This document shows, one piece after another, positions 1-6,659 of a stretch of DNA of 6,659 nt (position 1 is its first letter; each line of letters starts with the position of its first letter). The position numbers and the translations under genes are program-made. This DNA comes from a virus (lineage: Duplodnaviria; Heunggongvirae; Uroviricota; Caudoviricetes): the IMG/VR virus record IMGVR_UViG_2537562019_000020; one strand, given 5' to 3'. The notes under the pieces are model-generated. The model saw only the letters and a program-made list of their open reading frames with translations. It did not search any database and was not told where the DNA came from.

Positions 1-53
1 TGTAACTCCAAATTCTGGTCAAAAGTTGACACTCTCGCATAGCCGTATTGCAT
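1..53 (-). other. Mirror copy of invertase RBS, ATG and first 17 codons (MQYGYARVSTFDQNLELQ...), truncated by the window edge; a full or partial second invertase copy to the left cannot be distinguished
   Basis: Positions 51-53 are 'cat' (ATG on minus strand), corresponding to the invertase ATG at 3458-3460; 1-53 is the exact reverse complement of 3458-3510. Confidence 0.6.
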
Positions 54-117
54 ACTTTCTAACCTGCAATTGTTGCTGAAAGCGGGAAAAAATATCGTTC
101 AGACGACACGGAGGCAA

Positions 118-143
118 TTCTCAAAAACCTCGGTTTACAGGAA
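118..143. other. Left crossover site (gix/cix-like), TTCTCAAAAACC-TC-GGTTTACAGGAA
   Basis: 26 bp with 12-2-12 architecture: two imperfect inverted half-sites (consensus TTC..AAACC) around a central dinucleotide. The inner half-site TTCCTGTAAACC and the GA/TC core match Mu gix as I recall it. Partner site lies in inverted orientation at 3368-3393. Confidence 0.8.
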
Positions 144-167
144 ACGGTAAACAGGGCCAGGAACGCC

Positions 168-1124
168 GTGCAAAAGAATGGCGATACCTTGTCCGGTGGG
201 CTTACTTTTGAAAACGACTCTATCCTTGCCTGGATTCGAAATACTGACTGGGCGAAGATTGGATTTAAAAATGATGCTGATGGTGACACTGATTCATACA
301 TGTGGTTTGAAACAGGCGACAACGGCAATGAATATTTCAAATGGAGAAGCCGCCAGAGCACCACAACAAAAGACCTGATGAATCTTAAATGGGATGCTTT
401 GTCTGTCCTTGTTAAAGCCCTTTTCAGCAGTGAAGTAAAAATATCGACAGTCAATGCACTGAGGATATTTAATTCATCTTTTGGTGCTATTTTTCGTCGT
501 TCTGAAGAATGCCTGCATATCATCCCTACACGAGAGAATGAGGGAGAAAATGGTGATATAGGGCCACTACGCCCCTTTACGCTTAATCTTAGAACTGGTC
601 GGATAAGCATGGGGCATGGTCTTGATGTTACAGGGGATATATTTGCAAACCGTTTTGCTATTAACAGCAGTAATGGTATGTGGATTCAGATGCGCGATAA
701 CAACGCTATCTTTGGGAGAAATATAGTTAAAACTGATAGCGCCCAGGCATTGCTACGTCAGGACCATGCTGACCGCAAATTTATGATTGGTGGACTGGGG
801 AATAGGGAATTTGGCATCTACATGATTAATAACTCAAGGACAGACAATGGCACCGATGGTCAGGCGTACATGGATAATAACGGGAATTGGCTTTGCGGCT
901 CGCAAATTATTCCCGGCAATTATGGTAATTTTGACTCACGCTATGTTCGTGACGTTCGCATGGGTGCTAACCAGAGTGGGATTGTCTGGGGTGGTGATGG
1001 CGGAACGGTTCCAGCCGGATACGTTCTGACAGGTGGCAACTTTGATGATTCGAGAGAATGGCCTGTCTACGCTCCTGTTCAGAAATATATTAATGGTCAT
1101 TGGTACAATGTAGGACGTGCTTAA
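168..1124 (+). CDS. Tail-fibre variable C-terminal segment (Sv-like, receptor-binding part). Frame is open from 63 with no ATG/GTG/TTG before GTG at 168, so the true N-terminus is uncertain
   Basis: 318-aa ORF ending ...NFDSRYVRDVRMG...PVQKYINGHWYNVGRA, a C-terminal motif shared with the minus-strand fibre segment and typical of Mu S / P1 S-type fibres. Immediately followed by a chaperone gene. Possible SD AGGA at 159-162 five nt before GTG 168. Confidence 0.8.
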   Translation: MQKNGDTLSGGLTFENDSILAWIRNTDWAKIGFKNDADGDTDSYMWFETGDNGNEYFKWRSRQSTTTKDLMNLKWDALSVLVKALFSSEVKISTVNALRIFNSSFGAIFRRSEECLHIIPTRENEGENGDIGPLRPFTLNLRTGRISMGHGLDVTGDIFANRFAINSSNGMWIQMRDNNAIFGRNIVKTDSAQALLRQDHADRKFMIGGLGNREFGIYMINNSRTDNGTDGQAYMDNNGNWLCGSQIIPGNYGNFDSRYVRDVRMGANQSGIVWGGDGGTVPAGYVLTGGNFDDSREWPVYAPVQKYINGHWYNVGRA

Positions 1125-1125
1125 T

Positions 1126-1659
1126 ATGCAGCATTTAAAAAATATTAAAGCAGGAAATCCCAAAACTATCGAACAGTATCAACTTACAAAAGAATTTGAT
1201 GTTGTCTGGTTATGGTCGGAAGAAGGTAAGAACTGGTATGAGGAACAGAAAAATTTCCAGCCTGACACGTTAAAAGTGGCATATAACCAGGAGGGTGTTA
1301 TTTGCTGTATTGAGAAAGATGTATCCCTGATTAATCCAGAGGGAATGAGTGTGGTTGAGTTACCCAATATTACGGCAAACCGACGCGCTGATATTTCCGG
1401 CAACTGGATGTTCAAAGATGGCGTAGTGATAAAGCGAACTTATACCGAGGAAGAGCAGAGGCAACAAGCGGAAAATGAAAAGCAAAGCCTGCTACAGCTC
1501 GTCAGGGATAAAACACAGCTATGGGACTCACAGCTACGGCTGGGCATCATTTCCGACGAGAATAAACAAAAATTAACCGAGTGGATGCTCTATGCGCAGA
1601 AAGTCGAATCTACAGACACCTCCAGCCTGCCAGTAATATTTCCCGAACAACCTGAATGA
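1126..1659 (+). CDS. Tail-fibre assembly chaperone (Mu U / P1 U / Tfa family)
   Basis: ATG at 1126 lies 1 nt after the Sv stop (TAA 1122-1124), AGGA about 10 nt upstream. N-terminus [40 protein letters not shown] is near-identical to the N-terminus of the minus-strand paralogue at 1688-2215. The ORF track begins at GTG 1117; ATG 1126 is preferred. Confidence 0.85.
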   Translation: MQHLKNIKAGNPKTIEQYQLTKEFDVVWLWSEEGKNWYEEQKNFQPDTLKVAYNQEGVICCIEKDVSLINPEGMSVVELPNITANRRADISGNWMFKDGVVIKRTYTEEEQRQQAENEKQSLLQLVRDKTQLWDSQLRLGIISDENKQKLTEWMLYAQKVESTDTSSLPVIFPEQPE

Positions 1660-1662
1660 GAC

Positions 1663-1690
1663 AAGGCCCGATAGCGGGCCTTAATTTTTA
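1663..1690. terminator. Intrinsic terminator between the convergent chaperone genes; stronger for the plus-strand operon
   Basis: Stem 1663-1670 (aaggcccg) pairs with 1675-1682 (cgggcctt), loop atag, followed by aattttt on the plus strand. Sits between the U stop (1657-1659) and the U' stop (1688-1690). Confidence 0.55.
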
Positions 1691-2215
1691 TTCAGGCTTT
1701 TGTGGCCATTCGGGCTTTGCTGTATCCACACGGTTGACCAGAACGCTGTAGCGTTCCCATGACTCCAGTCGTGTACGCTCCTCATCCGTCGCCATATTCA
1801 GCCTGACAGCGCGTTCCAGTGGCTGAATAACGCTTTCAGCTTCAGAAAGCAACGCGGCCTTTTGTGATTCGGCCTGTTGTTGTTGCTCGTCTGCCGTATA
1901 AATCCGTTTAACCACAGCTCCGTCCCTAAACATCCACTTACCGGAATCATCAGCGCGGCGGTTGGCTGTAATATCTGGAACCTCAACGACGCTATAACCT
2001 TCAGGGTTAAGCGTGGAGGCATCTTTGGTGATGGCGACAATAATATTATTTGCATCGTAAACAATCTTTATTGTGTCTGGCTGAAAGTTTTTCACTTCCT
2101 CATACCAGTTTTTTCCGTCTTCGGACCATAACCAGATAACATCAAATTCTTTTGTAAGTTGATACTGTTCGATAGTTTTGGGATTACCTGCAGTAATATT
2201 TTTTAAATGCTGCAT
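1688..2215 (-). CDS. Tail-fibre assembly chaperone, alternative copy (U'-like)
   Basis: 175 aa. N-terminal 45 aa about 90% identical to U ([40 protein letters not shown]), C-terminal half divergent. ATG at 2215 sits 3 nt after the stop of the upstream fibre ORF. Confidence 0.85.
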
Positions 2216-2218
2216 AAA

Positions 2219-3376
2219 TTATACCTGTGCGACGTTATACCATGTGCCATTGATGTATTTTTGTATTGGTCTGAATACAGCCGGATCATCGCCATCAACA
2301 GCGCCAATAATGCCAAGCCCCGTAATTGCATGACCTGATTTCTCATACATCACGCCTTTTTGCATAGTCTGAACAACACGTGTACCAAGTCGGACATCTC
2401 TCACATAACGAGAATCAAAGTTACTCCAGTTGTTGGGGTTTATCTGACCGTTAACGGAGAACAATACTGAATTATCTGTATTTCTTTGACTATAAAAATG
2501 CCAACCTGAATCATCACCAAGTTCTGCAACTACGGGGCGGGATGAATTACCCCATAAATTAAACCTTGCATTCTTTGTGGAGTTGTTGGAGCTTGATAGC
2601 GAGAGTTTTTTACCATCTCCGGCCTGAATGTTTTTTAAAGCAATAGCCACGCCATTCTGGAAACGGAATACATGCTGACTATTAGCATAAACATCAAGAA
2701 GGCCATCGCCGTTCTGTTTGAAACCAGTATCATTATCCCCCAAAACAATCGAGTTACCGCCAAGAACACTGGATGTTCCGATGCCCAGTGCACCATTCAA
2801 TTGACCGCCAGATAATGACAACGCCCCAACCTCAGCAGCAGTCGGTTTAATGTGCGAACTGTAAATTACATATACAGTTCCATCTGTCAGGCCTGTTGGT
2901 TTATTCGCTGTATAAGTTGGTGATGTATGAATCGTTACGCTGGCGTTACTGGTATAATCCCACTGAATATTAACACCTGTGGCGTAATTACCTATTTCTA
3001 CATAAATGTCATAGGTATCACCGGATGTATTCACCCATGCAAAATGAGTAAATCCAACCGAGGTCCGTCGCCATAATGCACCAGTAATACCTTTTGGATT
3101 CCCATTTCCGGCACGCAGAACCAGCTCAGAGATGCCTGCTTGATGCGAGGAGCCAACGTTATACCCTGCGCCACCAATCAGGCTTATGTAAACCACGGAA
3201 CTGGCTTGTGGCATTGTTACAGTTGCCAGTTTGAACCATCCAGCACCACCACTAAAAGACATGGTTGTTGAATTTGTTGTGCCGATATTACGCAGGAATA
3301 GTTTTTTATCGGGAATATCTGCGCCGTTCTGGTTTTTCTGTAATGCGCCAGAAGCCTTATTTACCGTTTCCTGCAA
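2219..3376 (-). CDS. Tail-fibre variable C-terminal segment, alternative copy (Sv'-like). Frame is open up to 3448; the annotated start is a TTG inside the crossover site
   Basis: 385-aa ORF, Gly/Ser/Thr/Asn-rich, ending ...NFDSRYVRDVRLG...RPIQKYINGTWYNVAQV, paralogous to the end of the plus-strand fibre segment. Arrangement Sv-U / U'-Sv' is the classic Mu G / P1 C layout. Confidence 0.8.
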   Translation of the reverse strand: MQETVNKASGALQKNQNGADIPDKKLFLRNIGTTNSTTMSFSGGAGWFKLATVTMPQASSVVYISLIGGAGYNVGSSHQAGISELVLRAGNGNPKGITGALWRRTSVGFTHFAWVNTSGDTYDIYVEIGNYATGVNIQWDYTSNASVTIHTSPTYTANKPTGLTDGTVYVIYSSHIKPTAAEVGALSLSGGQLNGALGIGTSSVLGGNSIVLGDNDTGFKQNGDGLLDVYANSQHVFRFQNGVAIALKNIQAGDGKKLSLSSSNNSTKNARFNLWGNSSRPVVAELGDDSGWHFYSQRNTDNSVLFSVNGQINPNNWSNFDSRYVRDVRLGTRVVQTMQKGVMYEKSGHAITGLGIIGAVDGDDPAVFRPIQKYINGTWYNVAQV

Positions 3377-3393
3377 ACCGAGGTTTTTGAGAA
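3368..3393. other. Right crossover site (gix/cix-like), TTCCTGCAAACC-GA-GGTTTTTGAGAA
   Basis: Inverted copy of 118-143 with one mismatch; same 12-2-12 architecture with central GA. Lies 65 bp upstream of the invertase ATG. Confidence 0.8.
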
Positions 3394-3422
3394 TTGCCTC
3401 CGTGTCGTCTGAACGATATTTT
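3394..3422 (+). promoter_or_regulatory. Candidate sigma70 promoter of the invertase gene (TTGCCT-17-TATTTT), directly abutting the right crossover site
   Basis: Hexamers read by eye, each 4/6 to consensus with 17-bp spacing, about 36 bp upstream of ATG 3458. Weak call. Because it lies in the inverted repeat, a mirror copy exists at about 89-117 reading leftwards. Confidence 0.3.
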
Positions 3423-3457
3423 TTCCCGCTTTCAGCAACAATTGCAGGTTAGAAAGT

Positions 3458-4012
3458 ATGCAATACGGCTATGCGAGAGTGTCAACTTTTGACCAGAATT
3501 TGGAGTTACAACTGGAAGCGCTCAGGAGTTCAGGATGTGACCGGATTTTTGAAGATAAAATATCTGGCGCGAAGTCAAAACGACCAGGACTGGATAAGCT
3601 GATAAAAGCGTTACGACCGGGTGATACGGTTATTGTCTGGAAGCTGGACAGAATGGGGCGTTCTCTGATTCATCTTGTTGAATTGCTTAACTATTTTTTA
3701 TCAAACAACATTGAATTTATTTCTGTTACAGAAGGAATAAAAATTAGCACATCAATTGGCCGCTTTGCCTACACAATGCTGAGTGCGGTCGCAGAGATGG
3801 AGCGGGAAAATATTATTGAAAGAACGCGTGCAGGATTAGCGGTGGCAAGGGCTAACGGTAGGATAGGGGGGCGCCGCTCAAAACTGGCACCCGAGCAATG
3901 GGAACAGGTCGGAAGGCTTATTGTGAATGGTGTTTCACGTAAACAGATAGCGATTATCTTCGATGTTGCTTTATCCACGCTTTACCGCAGGTTTCCGGCT
4001 GGGAATCATTGA
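3458..4012 (+). CDS. Serine site-specific DNA invertase (Gin/Cin/Pin/Hin, Din family)
   Basis: 184 aa. N-terminal catalytic motif YARVST.DQ with Ser9; conserved VWKLDR.GRS; GRFAY..L.AVAEMERE.IIERT; GRIGGR; C-terminal HTH ...RKQIAIIFDVALSTLYRRFP. Overall strong resemblance to Pin/Cin as recalled. Confidence 0.92.
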   Translation: MQYGYARVSTFDQNLELQLEALRSSGCDRIFEDKISGAKSKRPGLDKLIKALRPGDTVIVWKLDRMGRSLIHLVELLNYFLSNNIEFISVTEGIKISTSIGRFAYTMLSAVAEMERENIIERTRAGLAVARANGRIGGRRSKLAPEQWEQVGRLIVNGVSRKQIAIIFDVALSTLYRRFPAGNH

Positions 4013-4034
4013 CTGGAGTACAACCATAAATCAA

Positions 4035-4057
4035 TATCCCCTGCAATGCAGGGGATA
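4035..4057. terminator. Perfect palindrome TATCCCCTGCA-a-TGCAGGGGATA between convergent invertase and sopB; candidate bidirectional terminator or protein-binding site
   Basis: 10-bp stem (4035-4044 / 4048-4057) with 3-nt loop, GC-rich core; flanked by cttctt on the plus strand and a moderately U-rich tract on the minus strand. Centred in the 49-bp gap between the invertase stop (4010-4012) and the sopB stop (4062-4064). Confidence 0.4.
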
Positions 4058-4061
4058 CTTC

Positions 4062-5027
4062 TTAAGTATCAGTAGATTGTTCCTCTAGTAACAACTCAAT
4101 TCTGCTTAGTATTTCTTTAGATATTTTGCGGCTATCAATTTTTATAGTTACAAAATTACCTTTATATCTAGCAGTGATCCCTTCCCCATATTTTTTCTCG
4201 TCTTTTGTTTTTTCCTCGTCGCCAACCAGAACAGAGTCAGATAATATTTGTATAATCCGTGAAGATTCTAAATCCTCGCCGTTTTTTTTAATTGCCAGAA
4301 GATGATGAGCAGCATTGCTCATGGCAGCCATGTTTTTTTTGTAAACCTTAAACAAAGAATCTCCAGCACGAGCTGACAGTTCTCCTGGATGATTGAAGAT
4401 AGCTAATATATCTTTTGGTAGACCAGCTGTATTGATACAGCGAGTGATAATATTTCTATCTATATTTTCAGCCTCGGCTAATGCTTTAACGTTACCATCA
4501 AAGTCATTTAGCTTGCGTAAGTATCTCTTTCCTCTTTCGTATGCACTAATAGGCCTATAATCGTTACCAATTTGGGATAACCAATGCATCTGTTCATCGT
4601 CGAGATCACCAATTAAGACGCGATAGTCACATCCTGTTAATATCGCTGCTTTTCTTCTACGTGAGCCGTCAGCGACTTCAACGATTCCAGATACTTTTCT
4701 GGCGAAAGCTGGATTTTGTTGTCCAGACGTTAGAAAAGATGGGATTAAATCGGCTAGAGAGGATTCATTTAATAAATCTTGATCGCGTTCATTACCTAGC
4801 CATACCATTGTTGCCATTTCAACTTTATCTGCGGGAATTGTCTCTAACTTAAAGTTAACATTACGTCCGCATACTGGCAAAGTTATGCTGTTACCGGTTA
4901 ATGAGCTCAGTTGACGTTTTAAATCACCAACCATAGGTGATACGGGCTGATGTTCAGGGGCATGATGATTATTACTCATAATGCGATTAATATCTGGAGC
5001 ATTTTTCAGAAGAGAGCGCTGTTTCAT
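4062..5027 (-). CDS. sopB: Plasmid partition protein SopB (ParB family, type Ia centromere-binding)
   Basis: 321 aa. Motifs matching F SopB as recalled: ITLPVCGR.V.F; GNERDQ.LL; DLIPSFL.TGQQ.PAF.R.VSG; ADGSRRRKAA (ParB arginine motif); LSQ/R.GNDYRP.SAYERG; ITRCINTA.LPK; F.HPGELSAR.GD. Start ATG overlaps the sopA stop (TAATG at 5025-5029). Confidence 0.85.
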   Translation of the reverse strand: MKQRSLLKNAPDINRIMSNNHHAPEHQPVSPMVGDLKRQLSSLTGNSITLPVCGRNVNFKLETIPADKVEMATMVWLGNERDQDLLNESSLADLIPSFLTSGQQNPAFARKVSGIVEVADGSRRRKAAILTGCDYRVLIGDLDDEQMHWLSQIGNDYRPISAYERGKRYLRKLNDFDGNVKALAEAENIDRNIITRCINTAGLPKDILAIFNHPGELSARAGDSLFKVYKKNMAAMSNAAHHLLAIKKNGEDLESSRIIQILSDSVLVGDEEKTKDEKKYGEGITARYKGNFVTIKIDSRKISKEILSRIELLLEEQSTDT

Positions 5028-6193
5028 TATTCGTTCTCCCAGCGAGGTTTTATTAGATCATCAAAAATTTCTCGGCAAACAGGGTCCCATATAGAAACAG
5101 CATTTCTCCATGCATTCAATGTTGAACGTTGGTTTGCTGCTTGTTCAAATACTGTTCTCATTTTTATCTGGCCTTTACCTACTTCATCGGTAACGCGTAC
5201 AACCTGACGTAATACCATTGATCCCCATGTATTTCTTATTTGTTCTTCCATCCATCGTGATTGATTCCCTGTAGTGAGACTATATTTAGTCAGAAGTAAG
5301 CGAACGGTTGGCTCAAATCCACCTAGGTCAACGCTTTCCAATAGATCGAGAAGCATTGTGAAAAACTGCAGAACAGAAGCGTAATCAAATAATTCTGCAG
5401 GTGTAGCAACAACAATAACGTCAGCGGCACAAACAACGTTAATGGTTCCTGTACCGAGGTTCGGAGCACTATCTATAACGATAACATCGTAGTTATCCCA
5501 AACTGATTCAATAGCTGCGCGTAGCATAAGGTGTGGAGGATGAGGCAATTTACCCTGAGCATGATATTGCATGAGATCTGTTTCTATACGATGTAAAGCT
5601 AGGCAGCTAGGGATAATGTCTAGCCCAGGCCAACATGTTGGCTTTATAGCATATTCAGCGTTATCGCGTTCTCCTAAGTAAAATGGCAGTAAAGTATCCT
5701 CGGCATGGATATGTAAATCAGGAACATAACCGTGATACATAGAGGCCGTGCCTTGAGGATCGTTACCTTCAACCAAAAGAACACGATGACCTTGTAATGC
5801 TAACCATTGAGCTTGATGCACCGCAGACGATGTTTTATAAACGCCGCCTTTGTGTGACATAACGGCAAGCACAACAGGGTTTTTATCTTGTGGTCGTTGG
5901 TTTGGGTTGCCAAAAACTGCTCGCATACTGTTGATTTGATCTATGGTATAACCAGCACGACGTTCAATTCTTCCTCTCATTTCAAAGTCAGGTGCAGGTA
6001 AACGCCCGCTCTTTTCAGCATCTCTAATTGCTTGAGGAGTTACACCAATTAAATCTGCTACTTCAGTTATACCCCATCGGCGGGGGATACGCCGAGCTTC
6101 AGGACTATCATCACCGAATTGAGCGATAGCAATTGCTTTGGTCATTTCTTGACCTCTCGTAACACAATCTTGCAATAACTTTTTCAAAGACAT
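5027..6193 (-). CDS. sopA: Plasmid partition ATPase SopA (ParA family, type Ia with N-terminal regulatory extension)
   Basis: 388 aa. Deviant Walker A KGGVYKTS; long blocks near-identical to F SopA as recalled (EMTKAIAIAQF.DDSPEAR, VEGNDPQGTASMYHGYVPDLHIHAEDTLLPFYLGE, IKPTCWPGLDIIPSCLALHRIETDLM, VIVIDSAPNLG.GTINVVCAADV, WMEEQIR..WGSMVL, TDEVGKGQIKMRTVFEQA, IKPRWE). GGAG SD 7-10 nt upstream of the ATG at 6191-6193. Confidence 0.92.
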   Translation of the reverse strand: MSLKKLLQDCVTRGQEMTKAIAIAQFGDDSPEARRIPRRWGITEVADLIGVTPQAIRDAEKSGRLPAPDFEMRGRIERRAGYTIDQINSMRAVFGNPNQRPQDKNPVVLAVMSHKGGVYKTSSAVHQAQWLALQGHRVLLVEGNDPQGTASMYHGYVPDLHIHAEDTLLPFYLGERDNAEYAIKPTCWPGLDIIPSCLALHRIETDLMQYHAQGKLPHPPHLMLRAAIESVWDNYDVIVIDSAPNLGTGTINVVCAADVIVVATPAELFDYASVLQFFTMLLDLLESVDLGGFEPTVRLLLTKYSLTTGNQSRWMEEQIRNTWGSMVLRQVVRVTDEVGKGQIKMRTVFEQAANQRSTLNAWRNAVSIWDPVCREIFDDLIKPRWENE

Positions 6194-6214
6194 ACTGTCA
6201 TCTCCAGCTTGTAA

Positions 6215-6292
6215 CTTTGCTTAATAATTAAATCTTTGCTTATTTCTAGCAAATTTGCATGAAAAAGGCAAAGCAAAACGAAAAACGCAAAG
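6215..6292 (-). promoter_or_regulatory. sopAB promoter/operator: four CTTTGC hexamers in dyad arrangement around a central GCAAATTTGC palindrome
   Basis: CTTTGC at 6215-6220 and 6234-6239; GCAAAG (inverted) at 6268-6273 and 6287-6292; central palindrome at 6249-6258. Hexamer centres are symmetric at 17 and 36 bp from the dyad centre (6253/6254). Candidate minus-strand promoter TTGCTA (6252-6247) -17- AATTAT (6229-6224). The F sopAB operator is known to use four CTTTGC SopA-binding repeats. Confidence 0.6.
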
Positions 6293-6481
6293 GTGAATAT
6301 TTAAGCTAAATCATCTTTTGTTCTCCTCCCGAAATGCATGAAACGAACAACAATATAATAATAACTAATTGATATTCATCATATTTTTTGAAGAAAGGAA
6401 ATCATGTAAAACTAGGGAAACATGATAAAAATCATCAATGAGATACGTTTTCTCTATTAATTCTCCCAACCTTACCAACGC

Positions 6482-6626
6482 AAGAACACAAATAAAGAAC
6501 ACAAAAGCAAGGTAATGACAAAAGCATAGTAAAGAACACAAATAAAGAATTAAAGCCAATGTTAAATGAAAGAAGTCGCAGTCTGAGAACATTACACTAA
6601 AAGAGAACATTAATCAAGAACACAAC
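6482..6626. repeat. Cluster of short direct repeats of the AGAACA family in an AT-rich non-coding region
   Basis: Exact 18-bp direct repeat AAGAACACAAATAAAGAA at 6482-6499 and 6532-6549; further AAGAACACA copies at 6495-6503 and 6616-6624; GAGAACATTA at 6585-6594 and 6603-6612. Confidence 0.7.
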
Positions 6627-6641
6627 GGAACATAATTCCCC

Positions 6642-6659
6642 ATTATACGCGCGTATAAT
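6642..6659. other. Perfect palindrome ATTATACGCGCGTATAAT at the window edge; candidate protelomerase (TelN-type) telomere resolution site, or the edge of a hairpin telomere
   Basis: 18-bp self-complementary sequence centred at 6650/6651, truncated by the window end. The core TATACGCGCGTATA matches my recollection of the phage N15 telO core; the left flank (6623-6641) also resembles the N15 telRL left arm. Adjacent to sopA, as in N15-like plasmid-prophages. Confidence 0.55.

What the first reader, a model, noticed from the sequence alone, without database searches (positions are those of the whole stretch)
6616..6659. Window ends inside an N15 telO-like palindrome next to sopA: candidate protelomerase target or hairpin telomere
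The last 18 bp (ATTATACGCGCGTATAAT) are perfectly self-complementary, and the window stops exactly 9 bp past the dyad centre. The core TATACGCGCGTATA is what I recall as the centre of the phage N15 telRL/telO site recognised by protelomerase TelN, and the left flank also resembles the N15 left arm. In N15-like linear plasmid-prophages the sopBA operon lies directly beside telRL, as here. The element may therefore be a telomere phage or linear plasmid, and the window edge may be a true hairpin end (telL) or the middle of an uncut telRL. A Mu/P1-type fibre inversion switch in such an element would be a notable module combination.
Basis: partly seen in the sequence, partly recalled or inferred. 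Interest (0 to 1): 0.75.

Follow-up and report, generated by a model that had tools for sequence, protein, structure and literature searches.

The report
N15-type phage telomere site, sopA side
The window ends inside the DNA site that an N15-like "telomere phage" of E. coli uses to cut and seal its prophage into a linear plasmid with hairpin ends; this is a well-known system, and the sequence stops there because the palindrome broke the genome assembly.

Summary
Window 6642-6659 is a perfect 18-bp palindrome with its dyad at 6650/6651. The 21 bases up to the window end are identical to the annotated telRL sites of N15 and phiKO2. SopA (92.8% identical to N15 SopA) starts 457 bp away.

The window is a complete 6,659-bp WGS contig (GCA_000356365.2, APXB01000010.1). 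A 99.94%-identical contig from another sample runs through the palindrome. A 633-aa TelK/TelN-family protelomerase with the catalytic tyrosine conserved starts 190 bp beyond it.

Long-read records of 97.6%-identical plasmids are giant perfect palindromes centred on this dyad (5,594-nt arms, no spacer). That is the fold-back signature of a hairpin telomere or its replicated junction.

The stop 9 bp past the dyad is not a physical end. A k=31 de Bruijn graph breaks exactly there when the two arms share 21 perfect bases. It does so for cut and uncut DNA alike, so the contig cannot tell hairpin from uncut telRL.

By the N15 convention the sopA side is telR, not telL. The fibre-inversion switch beside it is real, and the same combination is already in public sequences.

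Verdict: an ordinary new member of the N15-like phage-plasmids.

The parts
6642..6659 (.). Perfect 18-bp palindrome ATTATACGC|GCGTATAAT. It is the core of the N15-type telO/telRL telomere resolution site, cut short by the contig end.
   Evidence: Identical to the N15 and phiKO2 telRL cores.
6648..6653 (.). Central CGCGCG, the 6 bp expected to lie between the two staggered protelomerase cuts. The dyad, which is the hairpin tip, lies between 6650 and 6651.
   Evidence: Read directly from the sequence. PMC3558466 states that all known protelomerases cut 6 bp apart and that CGCGCG lies between the scissile positions of the TelK target. The N15 record annotates the cut at the dyad. The cut positions in this window are inferred.
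6630..6650 (+). 21-nt sopA-side (telR) arm ACATAATTCCCCATTATACGC. In relatives it is mirrored exactly on the telN side, giving a 42-bp perfect palindrome.
6651..6659 (+). The 9 nt past the dyad. They could be the start of the telN-side arm, the bottom strand read round a hairpin, or a telRR junction. All three have the same sequence here.
   Evidence: De Bruijn simulation. Three Logan contigs end at the same base.
6484..6633 (+). Seven same-strand GAACAY motifs leading up to the telomere, probably flanking repeats of the protelomerase occupancy region. The last copy (6628-6633) overlaps the 21-nt arm.
   Evidence: Six of the eight AGAACAY matches in the window lie at 6483-6623, against 2.05 expected in the whole window. 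There are 7 GAACAY in the last 200 nt against a background of 0.22 per 200 nt, and N15 has 5 on the same side. [quoted passage not shown]
5027..6193 (-). sopA (ParA-type partition ATPase, 388 aa). It is transcribed away from the telomere and starts 457 bp from the dyad.
   Evidence: NCBIfam NF010259 SopA equivalog, 731 bits. 92.8% identical to N15 SopA. The spacing matches N15 (487 bp) and phiKO2 (517 bp).
4062..5027 (-). sopB (ParB-family partition protein, 321 aa).
   Evidence: NCBIfam NF010252, 407 bits. 73% identical to N15 SopB.
3458..4012 (+). Serine DNA invertase (Gin/Hin/Cin type, 184 aa). It belongs to the neighbouring fibre switch, not to the telomere module.
   Evidence: Pfam Resolvase + HTH_7. 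Annotated as hin or 'recombinase family protein' in relatives.
119..3392 (.). Invertible tail-fibre segment bounded by inverted gix-like sites at 119-146 and 3365-3392. It carries two alternative fibre C-termini (168-1124 +, 2219-3376 -) and two fibre assembly chaperones (1117-1659 +, 1688-2215 -).
1..118 (-). A second, reverse-complement copy of the invertase flank. Window 1-137 is the exact reverse complement of 3374-3510, and within that stretch 1-118 is the flank outside the gix-like site. It stands where the constant part of the fibre gene should be, so the contig joins both states of the switch.
   Evidence: Relatives hold either 1-3393 or 118-4019 contiguously, never both. L053 and L054 show the true fibre-side flank.

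Best explanation
The last 18-21 bp of the window are the sopA-side half (telR arm) plus 9 nt of the telomere resolution site (telRL/telO) of an N15-like temperate phage. [quoted passage not shown]

Mechanism, established for N15 TelN and phiKO2 TelK and inferred here. A dimer of a TelN/TelK-family protelomerase binds the palindrome. It cuts both strands 6 bp apart around the dyad (CGCGCG, 6648-6653) through 3'-phosphotyrosine links. The self-complementary overhangs fold back and are resealed. This turns ...ATTATACGC|GCGTATAAT... into two hairpins, with the telR tip at 6650/6651.

After replication the same enzyme resolves the telRR and telLL junctions. SopA and SopB next door partition the linear plasmid.

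The protelomerase gene is not in the window. It is expected about 190 bp beyond the dyad on another contig of the same assembly.

The window is a whole contig. It ends 9 nt past the dyad because the palindrome breaks a short-k de Bruijn assembly, not because the DNA ends at that base.
For: Shown here:
- The 21 nt up to the window end match the annotated N15 and phiKO2 tel sites exactly.
- Gene order and spacing (sopB-sopA, then about 460-520 bp, then the dyad) are as in N15 and phiKO2. SopA is 92.8% identical to N15 SopA.
- The window is the whole contig APXB01000010.1.
- L050 (Logan SRR446978) is 99.94% identical over window 3360-6659. It continues through the site into a 633-aa protein with the Pfam domains TelK_N, TelK_muzzle, ResT-TelK_cat and TelK_stirrup. 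That protein is 77% identical to TelN and 75% to TelK, and the QLHYKQF motif around catalytic Tyr425 is identical.
- The same holds in NZ_CP148365.1 and NZ_CP117561.1, where the gene is annotated 'protelomerase family protein'.
- CP088558.1 is a perfect palindrome with 5,594-nt arms and no spacer, centred on this dyad next to sopA. pG749_3 is the same kind of record.
- IMG/VR holds many contigs that end 11-51 nt past this dyad, or that fold back for 143-6,832 nt.
- The PhiR46_1 record is laid out as telL-protelomerase...ParA-telR.
- In simulation, k=31 with 21-nt shared arms ends the unitig at exactly +9. Three Logan contigs of the same element end at that base.

From the literature: telRL and TelN biology (PMC10612081, PMC12624138, PMC3540006) and the 6-bp stagger with CGCGCG (PMC3558466).
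Against:
- The physical state of the DNA in this strain (hairpins, uncut telRL or both) is untested.
- The assembler and k used for APXB01 are unknown. The k=31 explanation of the +9 end rests on the coincidence with Logan contigs. A fourth Logan contig ends at +4 and other NCBI contigs end elsewhere.
- The sopA-side arm departs from the N15 L3/R3 repeat beyond position 21 (AACGGA against ATCAGC). Binding to this half could therefore differ. Relatives with almost the same arm (26 of 28 nt) do give fold-back assemblies.
Confidence: 0.9

Rival explanations
1. The contig edge is a true physical hairpin end. On this reading the 9 nt after the dyad are the complementary strand read round the telR hairpin, or a replicated telRR junction, and no uncut telRL was present in the sequenced culture.
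For: Lysogens of N15-type phages carry the site as hairpins (PMC10612081, PMC12624138). Relatives give fold-back assemblies centred on this dyad. Several IMG/VR contigs continue past 21 nt as the reverse complement of the sopA-side arm, for example L022 and L045.
Against: It cannot be told apart from the alternative here, because the first 21 nt past the dyad are the same in a hairpin read-through and in uncut telRL of the 42-bp type. In simulation, a telR read-through on its own would end a k=31 unitig at +15, not +9. The +9 end needs k-mers from both arms. The sister contig L050 crosses an uncut telRL, so uncut junctions do occur in such cultures.
Confidence: 0.35
2. The contig breaks in the middle of an uncut telRL. 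The element, or a large share of its copies, was in the circular or concatemeric phage form (spontaneous induction or replication intermediates) or is a circular plasmid, and the palindrome merely stopped the assembler.
For: In simulation, uncut telRL with 21-nt arms ends a k=31 unitig at exactly +9. L050 and many PLSDB 'circular' records show sopA-telRL-telN as continuous sequence.
Against: The same +9 results from hairpins of both ends read through. 'Circular' records of 46-48 kb can arise by joining the two ends through the shared 42-bp core. Fold-back records show that relatives are resolved at this dyad.
Confidence: 0.3
3. The palindrome is a relic in a defective or rearranged element with no working protelomerase, or it is a chance palindrome, and it has no current function.
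For: The window holds no protelomerase. A bare 9-nt-arm palindrome turns up in 3% of shuffles.
Against: The 21-nt match to tel sites annotated in the phage records, the conserved position beside sopA, and an intact protelomerase in a 99.94%-identical contig all speak against chance or decay. The site and its arm are conserved in sister contigs that differ by 1-48 mismatches (at least 99.2% identical).
Confidence: 0.04

Closest known systems
Escherichia phage N15 telRL/telO with protelomerase TelN (AF064539, site 24775-24830)
   Same: The core CCCATTATACGCGCGTATAAT is identical. The site sits about 460-490 bp upstream of sopA, with sopB behind it. The protelomerase gene in near-identical contigs starts about 190 bp beyond the dyad, as in N15 (192 bp). 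GAACAY repeats lie on the sopA side.
   Different: The protelomerase of the lineage is only 77% identical to TelN, and SopB 73%. The perfect palindrome is 42 bp in the closest plasmids, against 22 bp (telO) in N15. The sopA-side arm lacks the N15 L3-type repeat (AACGGAACAT against ATCAGCACAC), so telRL is asymmetric beyond +/-21. Next to sopB is a fibre-inversion switch where N15 has gene 26 (umuD) and a fibre gene.
Klebsiella phage phiKO2 telRL with TelK
   Same: The same core and the same CGCGCG between the cut positions. The same sopBA-telRL-protelomerase order. The lineage's protelomerase has the TelK_N, muzzle, catalytic and stirrup domains.
   Different: 75% protein identity. phiKO2 has no GAACAY motifs in its flank. 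The host genus differs.
Escherichia phage PhiR46_1 (PV340565, from ECOR13), deposited in linear prophage order with telL and telR annotated
   Same: ParA is 99% identical to the window's SopA. The record ends in the same palindrome, annotated 'telR site', 11 nt past the dyad.
   Different: 88% DNA identity over sopBA-tel. The arm is of the N15-like ATCAGCACAT type. There is no invertase next to ParB.
E. coli plasmid pZ1323HEC0355-3 (NZ_CP148365.1, 45.9 kb) and the Logan contig SRR446978_168
   Same: 97.8% and 99.94% identical. They have the same invertase-sopB-sopA-telRL order, lambda-like tail genes, a side fibre with an invertible segment, a protelomerase and a large CyRepA1-type replication protein.
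   Different: These are essentially the same element. They are annotated as a circular plasmid or not annotated at all, and the tel site is not marked.
Yersinia phage PY54 pal/Tel
   Same: A 42-bp perfect palindrome as target. The central TACGCGCGTA is shared (PMC3540006).
   Different: The arms and the protein are different. No close DNA match turned up in the searches here.

Membership tests
N15-type telomere resolution site (telRL/telO) | Palindromic core matching telO (CCCATTATACGCGCGTATAATGG) with central CGCGCG | tested here: met
   Window 6639-6659 matches 21 of the 23 nt exactly. The last two G lie beyond the contig end and are present in all relatives.
N15-type telomere resolution site (telRL/telO) | Inverted-repeat arms flanking telO on both sides (the 56-bp telRL of N15) | tested here: inconclusive
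   The right arm is not in the window. In near-identical sequences the arms are perfect for 21 nt (NZ_CP148365.1) or 12 nt (L050). Beyond that the sopA arm departs from the N15-type repeat that is kept on the telN side.
N15-type telomere resolution site (telRL/telO) | Position between the sopBA partition operon and the protelomerase gene | tested here: inconclusive
   The sopA side is met in the window. The protelomerase side is met only in the 97.8-99.94% identical relatives, not in this assembly.
N15-type telomere resolution site (telRL/telO) | Processed by a cognate protelomerase into covalently closed hairpins | not testable with these tools
   Indirect support only: fold-back records of 97.6% relatives centred on the dyad, and the catalytic Tyr425 motif conserved in the lineage's enzyme.
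N15-like linear phage-plasmids (telomere phages) | A TelN/TelK-family protelomerase encoded by the element | not tested
   The gene is not in the window. It is present in the sister contig L050.
N15-like linear phage-plasmids (telomere phages) | SopA/SopB (type Ia ParAB) partition genes of the N15 type | tested here: met
   The SopA equivalog model scores 731 bits against a cut-off of 725. SopA is 92.8% and SopB 73% identical to the N15 proteins.
N15-like linear phage-plasmids (telomere phages) | Lambda-like virion genes and a large RepA-type replication protein on the same replicon | tested here: inconclusive
   Only fibre genes lie in the window. The complete set is seen in NZ_CP148365.1 and partly in L050.
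Gin/Hin/Cin invertible fibre switch (neighbouring module) | A small serine invertase next to a segment bounded by inverted 26-bp crossover sites, with alternative fibre C-termini and chaperones | tested here: met
   Resolvase + HTH_7 protein. gix-like sites at 119-146 and 3365-3392. Two fibre ends and two Caudo_TAP chaperones. Both orientations are seen in sister samples.

The most novel reading that the evidence does not exclude
This E. coli lineage of telomere phages may differ functionally from N15 in two undescribed ways.

(a) Its two telomeres are not equivalent. The telR arm has lost the N15-type outer repeat but carries seven direct GAACAY motifs. These might load extra protelomerase, or another protein, for end protection or partition at that end only.

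(b) It has captured a Gin-type invertible host-range switch from Mu/P1/P2-like phages, placed directly beside the partition and telomere module. No paper in the searched library describes this for a telomere phage.
Probability: 0.25. Interest if true: 0.4.

Novelty: new member of a known kind. Interest (0 to 1): 0.25.

Why it matters
Mainly as a matter of correct annotation. This short WGS contig is one end of an N15-like linear phage-plasmid, not a fragment of an ordinary plasmid.

Such elements are often filed as 'circular cryptic plasmids', or as oversize mirror-image records. The tel palindrome explains both errors.

There is also a practical rule for scans. A contig that ends k-22 nt past this dyad is a graph artefact of the 42-bp palindrome, not a mapped DNA end.

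Biologically the lineage adds little. It shows a telomere phage with a switchable tail fibre and with unequal telomere arms, which could be used to ask how much of the outer telRL repeat TelN-type enzymes need.

Tried and rejected
- Searched the window-specific 33-mer GGAACATAATTCCCCATTATACGCGCGTATAAT in IMG/VR, the GTDB representative genomes and the JGI metagenomes. There were no hits, so the source was found through the exact SopA protein instead.
- Tried to find the protelomerase contig of the same assembly. Not achieved.
- Searched the papers for the assembly accession. Nothing found.
- Considered that the 48.5-kb ATCC 25922-type plasmids and Yersinia phage vB_YpM_44, which share the fibre and invertase cassette at about 89%, might also be telomere phages. 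Rejected: they carry repA right after the invertase, have P2-like baseplate and tail genes, and show no sop, tel or protelomerase genes in the stretches examined.
- Considered the 14-bp palindrome GCCAACATGTTGGC inside sopA (dyad after 5635) as a centromere-like site. Its arm of 7 is about what shuffles give (mean longest arm 6.4), so it was dropped.
- Considered reading the +9 end as evidence for a hairpin. Rejected after the simulation.
- Rfam found nothing in the window.

Full report
**1. The observation**

The window ends ...ACATAATTCCCCATTATACGCGCGTATAAT. Positions 6642-6659 form a perfect zero-spacer palindrome with 9-nt arms. The dyad lies between 6650 and 6651, and the window stops 9 nt past it.

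It is the longest such palindrome in the window; the next has 7-nt arms. In 500 dinucleotide-preserving shuffles, an arm of at least 9 occurred somewhere in 16, and one that runs into the 3' end occurred in none. The arm is cut short by the end of the sequence, so 9 is a lower bound. As a bare palindrome it is therefore only moderately unusual. Its identity is what matters.

**2. Identity with known tel sites**

A sensitive BLAST of the last 460 nt against the phage collection found three relevant records:
- the N15 telRL, annotated 'inverted repeat containing cut site for prophage formation; cut at 24802/3';
- the phiKO2 'telRL; binding site';
- the end of Escherichia phage PhiR46_1, annotated 'telR site'.

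In the alignment the 21 nt CCCATTATACGCGCGTATAAT are invariant in all six sequences. Counting back from the dyad, the window shares 19 of 21 and 22 of 28 nt with N15, and 17 of 21 with phiKO2.

The neighbouring genes fit:
- The ORF at 5027-6193(-) passes NCBI's SopA equivalog model (731 bits, cut-off 725) and is 92.8% identical to N15 SopA.
- The ORF at 4062-5027(-) is the ParB-family partner, 73% identical to N15 SopB.
- The distance from the sopA start to the dyad is 457 bp here, 487 bp in N15 and 517 bp in phiKO2.

**3. What lies to the right**

The window is not a slice of something longer. The exact SopA protein is on record on a single contig, NCBI GCA_000356365.2, APXB01000010.1, 6,659 bp long. 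The window is its reverse complement. Both window ends are therefore contig ends.

Sequences from elsewhere supply the continuation. Where the records show the site uncut, the sequence past the dyad continues into a telN-side arm:

| Source | Identity to window | Sequence past the dyad | Perfect palindrome | Next gene |
|---|---|---|---|---|
| E. coli plasmid NZ_CP148365.1 | 97.8% over 3385-6659 | ...GCGTATAATGGGGAATTATGT, then GCTGATTTT... | 42 bp | 'protelomerase family protein', 191 bp from the dyad |
| E. albertii NZ_CP117561.1 | 97.5% over 4017-6659 | same pattern | 42 bp | annotated protelomerase |
| Logan contig L050, SRR446978, 21.6 kb | 99.94% over 3360-6659 (2 mismatches in 3,300); 100% over 1-1185 | runs straight through the site | 24 bp | 633-aa protelomerase starting 190 bp from the dyad, then Bro-N, Icd-like and a 1,331-aa replication protein |

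The L050 protein has the Pfam domains TelK_N, TelK_muzzle, ResT-TelK_cat and TelK_stirrup. It is 77% identical to N15 TelN and 75% to phiKO2 TelK. The catalytic-tyrosine motif QLHYKQF (Tyr425 in TelN, PMC12624138) and the other active-site stretches I checked are conserved.

I could not reach the other contigs of the window's own assembly. The presence of the enzyme in this very strain is therefore inferred, not shown.

**4. Evidence that this dyad is a hairpin telomere in relatives**

Two public records that are 97.6-97.7% identical over sopBA-tel are mirror images:
- CP088558.1 (11,214 bp) is a perfect palindrome with 5,594-nt arms and no spacer. It is centred exactly on ATTATACGC|GCGTATAAT, with sopA and parB on both sides.
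- pG749_3 (NZ_CP014491.1, 62.6 kb) has the same structure over more than 6 kb.

Beyond +21 these records read ...GGGGAATTATGTTTCGTTATG. That is the reverse complement of the sopA-side arm, not the telN arm.

The 22-bp telO occurs in 37 IMG/VR stretches. About a dozen end 11-51 nt past the dyad with a perfect palindrome up to the end. Nine more are fold-backs of 143-6,832 nt.

This is what a covalently closed hairpin, or the telRR junction made by its replication (PMC12624138), gives when it is sequenced.

PhiR46_1 is deposited in prophage order: telL (1-22), a 633-aa ORF, and so on to ParA and telR (46269-46290). The sopA-side end is therefore telR, not telL.

**5. Why the contig stops 9 nt past the dyad**

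Three Logan contigs of the same element (L053, L054, L057) end at exactly the same base. A fourth ends at +4, and other NCBI contigs end at +1 or before the dyad. Logan assemblies use k=31 (my own knowledge).

I simulated unitig extension from the sopA side.

| Scenario at k=31 | Unitig ends at |
|---|---|
| Two arms sharing 21 perfect nt, uncut telRL | +9 |
| Two arms sharing 21 perfect nt, both hairpins read through | +9 |
| Two arms sharing 21 perfect nt, mixture of the two | +9 |
| telR read-through alone | +15 |
| L050-type telRL (12-nt arms), uncut | crossed without a break, as L050 is |

The rule is k - 22 = 9. The edge is therefore an assembly-graph breakpoint. It shows that some reads crossed the dyad, but it does not show whether the DNA was hairpin or uncut. 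If k=31 was used for APXB01, which is unknown, it predicts a telN-side arm of the GGGG type.

The other contig end is also a repeat boundary. Window 1-137 is the exact reverse complement of 3374-3510, which holds the invertase start and its flank up to the first base that differs between the two ends of the invertible segment.

**6. Mechanism**

This is established for the family and inferred here. A protelomerase dimer binds the palindrome and makes staggered cuts 6 bp apart with 3'-phosphotyrosine intermediates. It then reseals each half as a hairpin. CGCGCG lies between the scissile positions of the TelK target (PMC3558466; life cycle in PMC10612081).

In the window, CGCGCG is 6648-6653 and the hairpin tip is 6650/6651. 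SopAB partition the linear plasmid. TelN bound at the ends also protects them from SbcCD (PMC12624138).

Seven same-strand GAACAY motifs fill 6484-6633. Six of the window's eight AGAACAY matches lie there, against 2.05 expected in the whole window. N15 has five on its sopA side and phiKO2 none. [quoted passage not shown]

**7. Comparison and novelty**

N15-like phage-plasmids are a described group in E. coli, Shigella and Salmonella. They have sopAB, telN and repA, lambda-like structural genes, and variable tail genes (PMC7969092; bioRxiv 10.1101/2025.09.12.675607). Telomere phages are known to be widespread (PMC12042878).

The present element is a member of that group, with a protelomerase 77% identical to TelN. 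The same element at 97.8-99.9% identity is already in public records. Its differences from N15 are modest:
- a 42-bp rather than a 22-bp perfect core in the closest plasmids;
- a sopA-side arm that lacks the N15 outer repeat (AACGGAACAT against ATCAGCACAC), while the telN-side arm keeps it;
- a Gin-type invertible fibre cassette next to sopB.

That cassette is about 89% identical to those of circular RepA phage-plasmids such as the 48.5-kb plasmid of ATCC 25922 and of Yersinia phage vB_YpM_44, which show no tel module in the stretches examined. Of the close PLSDB relatives listed, only NZ_CP148365.1 matches the window across the invertase as well as sopB. All ten contigs shown that carry the identical SopB have the invertase next to it. 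No paper in the searched library links 'telomere phage' with 'invertase'.

**8. Verdict**

- The end is telR, not telL.
- The edge of the window is an assembly artefact of the palindrome and says nothing about the physical state of the DNA.
- The module combination is real but already public.

This is a new member of a known kind, and interest is low to moderate.

Noticed in passing
window 1-3510: The contig joins both states of a Gin/Hin-type invertible tail-fibre segment. Bases 1-137 are the exact reverse complement of 3374-3510 (invertase start and flank), so the invertase flank sits at both ends of the segment. The true fibre-side crossover site (TTATCGAATACCTCGGTTTGCAGGAAAC) appears only in longer sister contigs. 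Two sister samples (L053 and L054) hold the segment in opposite orientations, so the switch is active.
   Followed up: yes
window 6484-6633: There are seven direct GAACAY motifs on one strand within 150 nt of the telomere, against a background of about 0.2 per 200 nt. N15 has five on the same side, phiKO2 none, and the telN side has only one to three. They are possibly extra protein-binding repeats specific to the telR end.
   Followed up: partly
window 6623-6629, and L050 around locus position 8377: telRL of this lineage is asymmetric. The sopA arm reads ...CACAACGGAACATAATT, while the telN arm (reverse complement) reads ...AAAATCAGCACATAATT, which is the N15-like outer repeat. In L050 there is also a C/A mismatch at +/-13, which cuts the perfect palindrome to 24 bp and lets a k=31 assembly cross it.
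   Followed up: partly
PLSDB and RefSeq records NZ_CP014491.1, CP088558.1, CP088562.1, CP088810.1, NZ_CP126957.1, CP088738.1 and NZ_LT906558.1: Several 'complete circular plasmids' that match the sopBA-tel arm have odd sizes (11-81 kb) and hold two copies of the match. The two I checked (NZ_CP014491.1 and CP088558.1) are mirror-image fold-back assemblies of a hairpin-ended linear phage-plasmid. The others probably are too, and are mis-described as circular.
   Followed up: partly
L055 (APZB01000145.1), L056 (APZG01000057.1), L057 and L058 (SRR446803, SRR446711), L050 (SRR446978): At least five other assemblies or runs carry the same element with 1-2 mismatches over 3.3-6 kb. This suggests one clone, or one circulating phage-plasmid, sampled repeatedly in the same sequencing project.
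   Followed up: no
window 6365-6610 (-): An 81-codon ORF fills the sopA-telomere spacer on the sopA strand. PhiR46_1 annotates only a 51-aa hypothetical ORF directly upstream of ParA. It is probably not a gene, since the region is AT-rich repeat DNA, but this was not examined.
   Followed up: no
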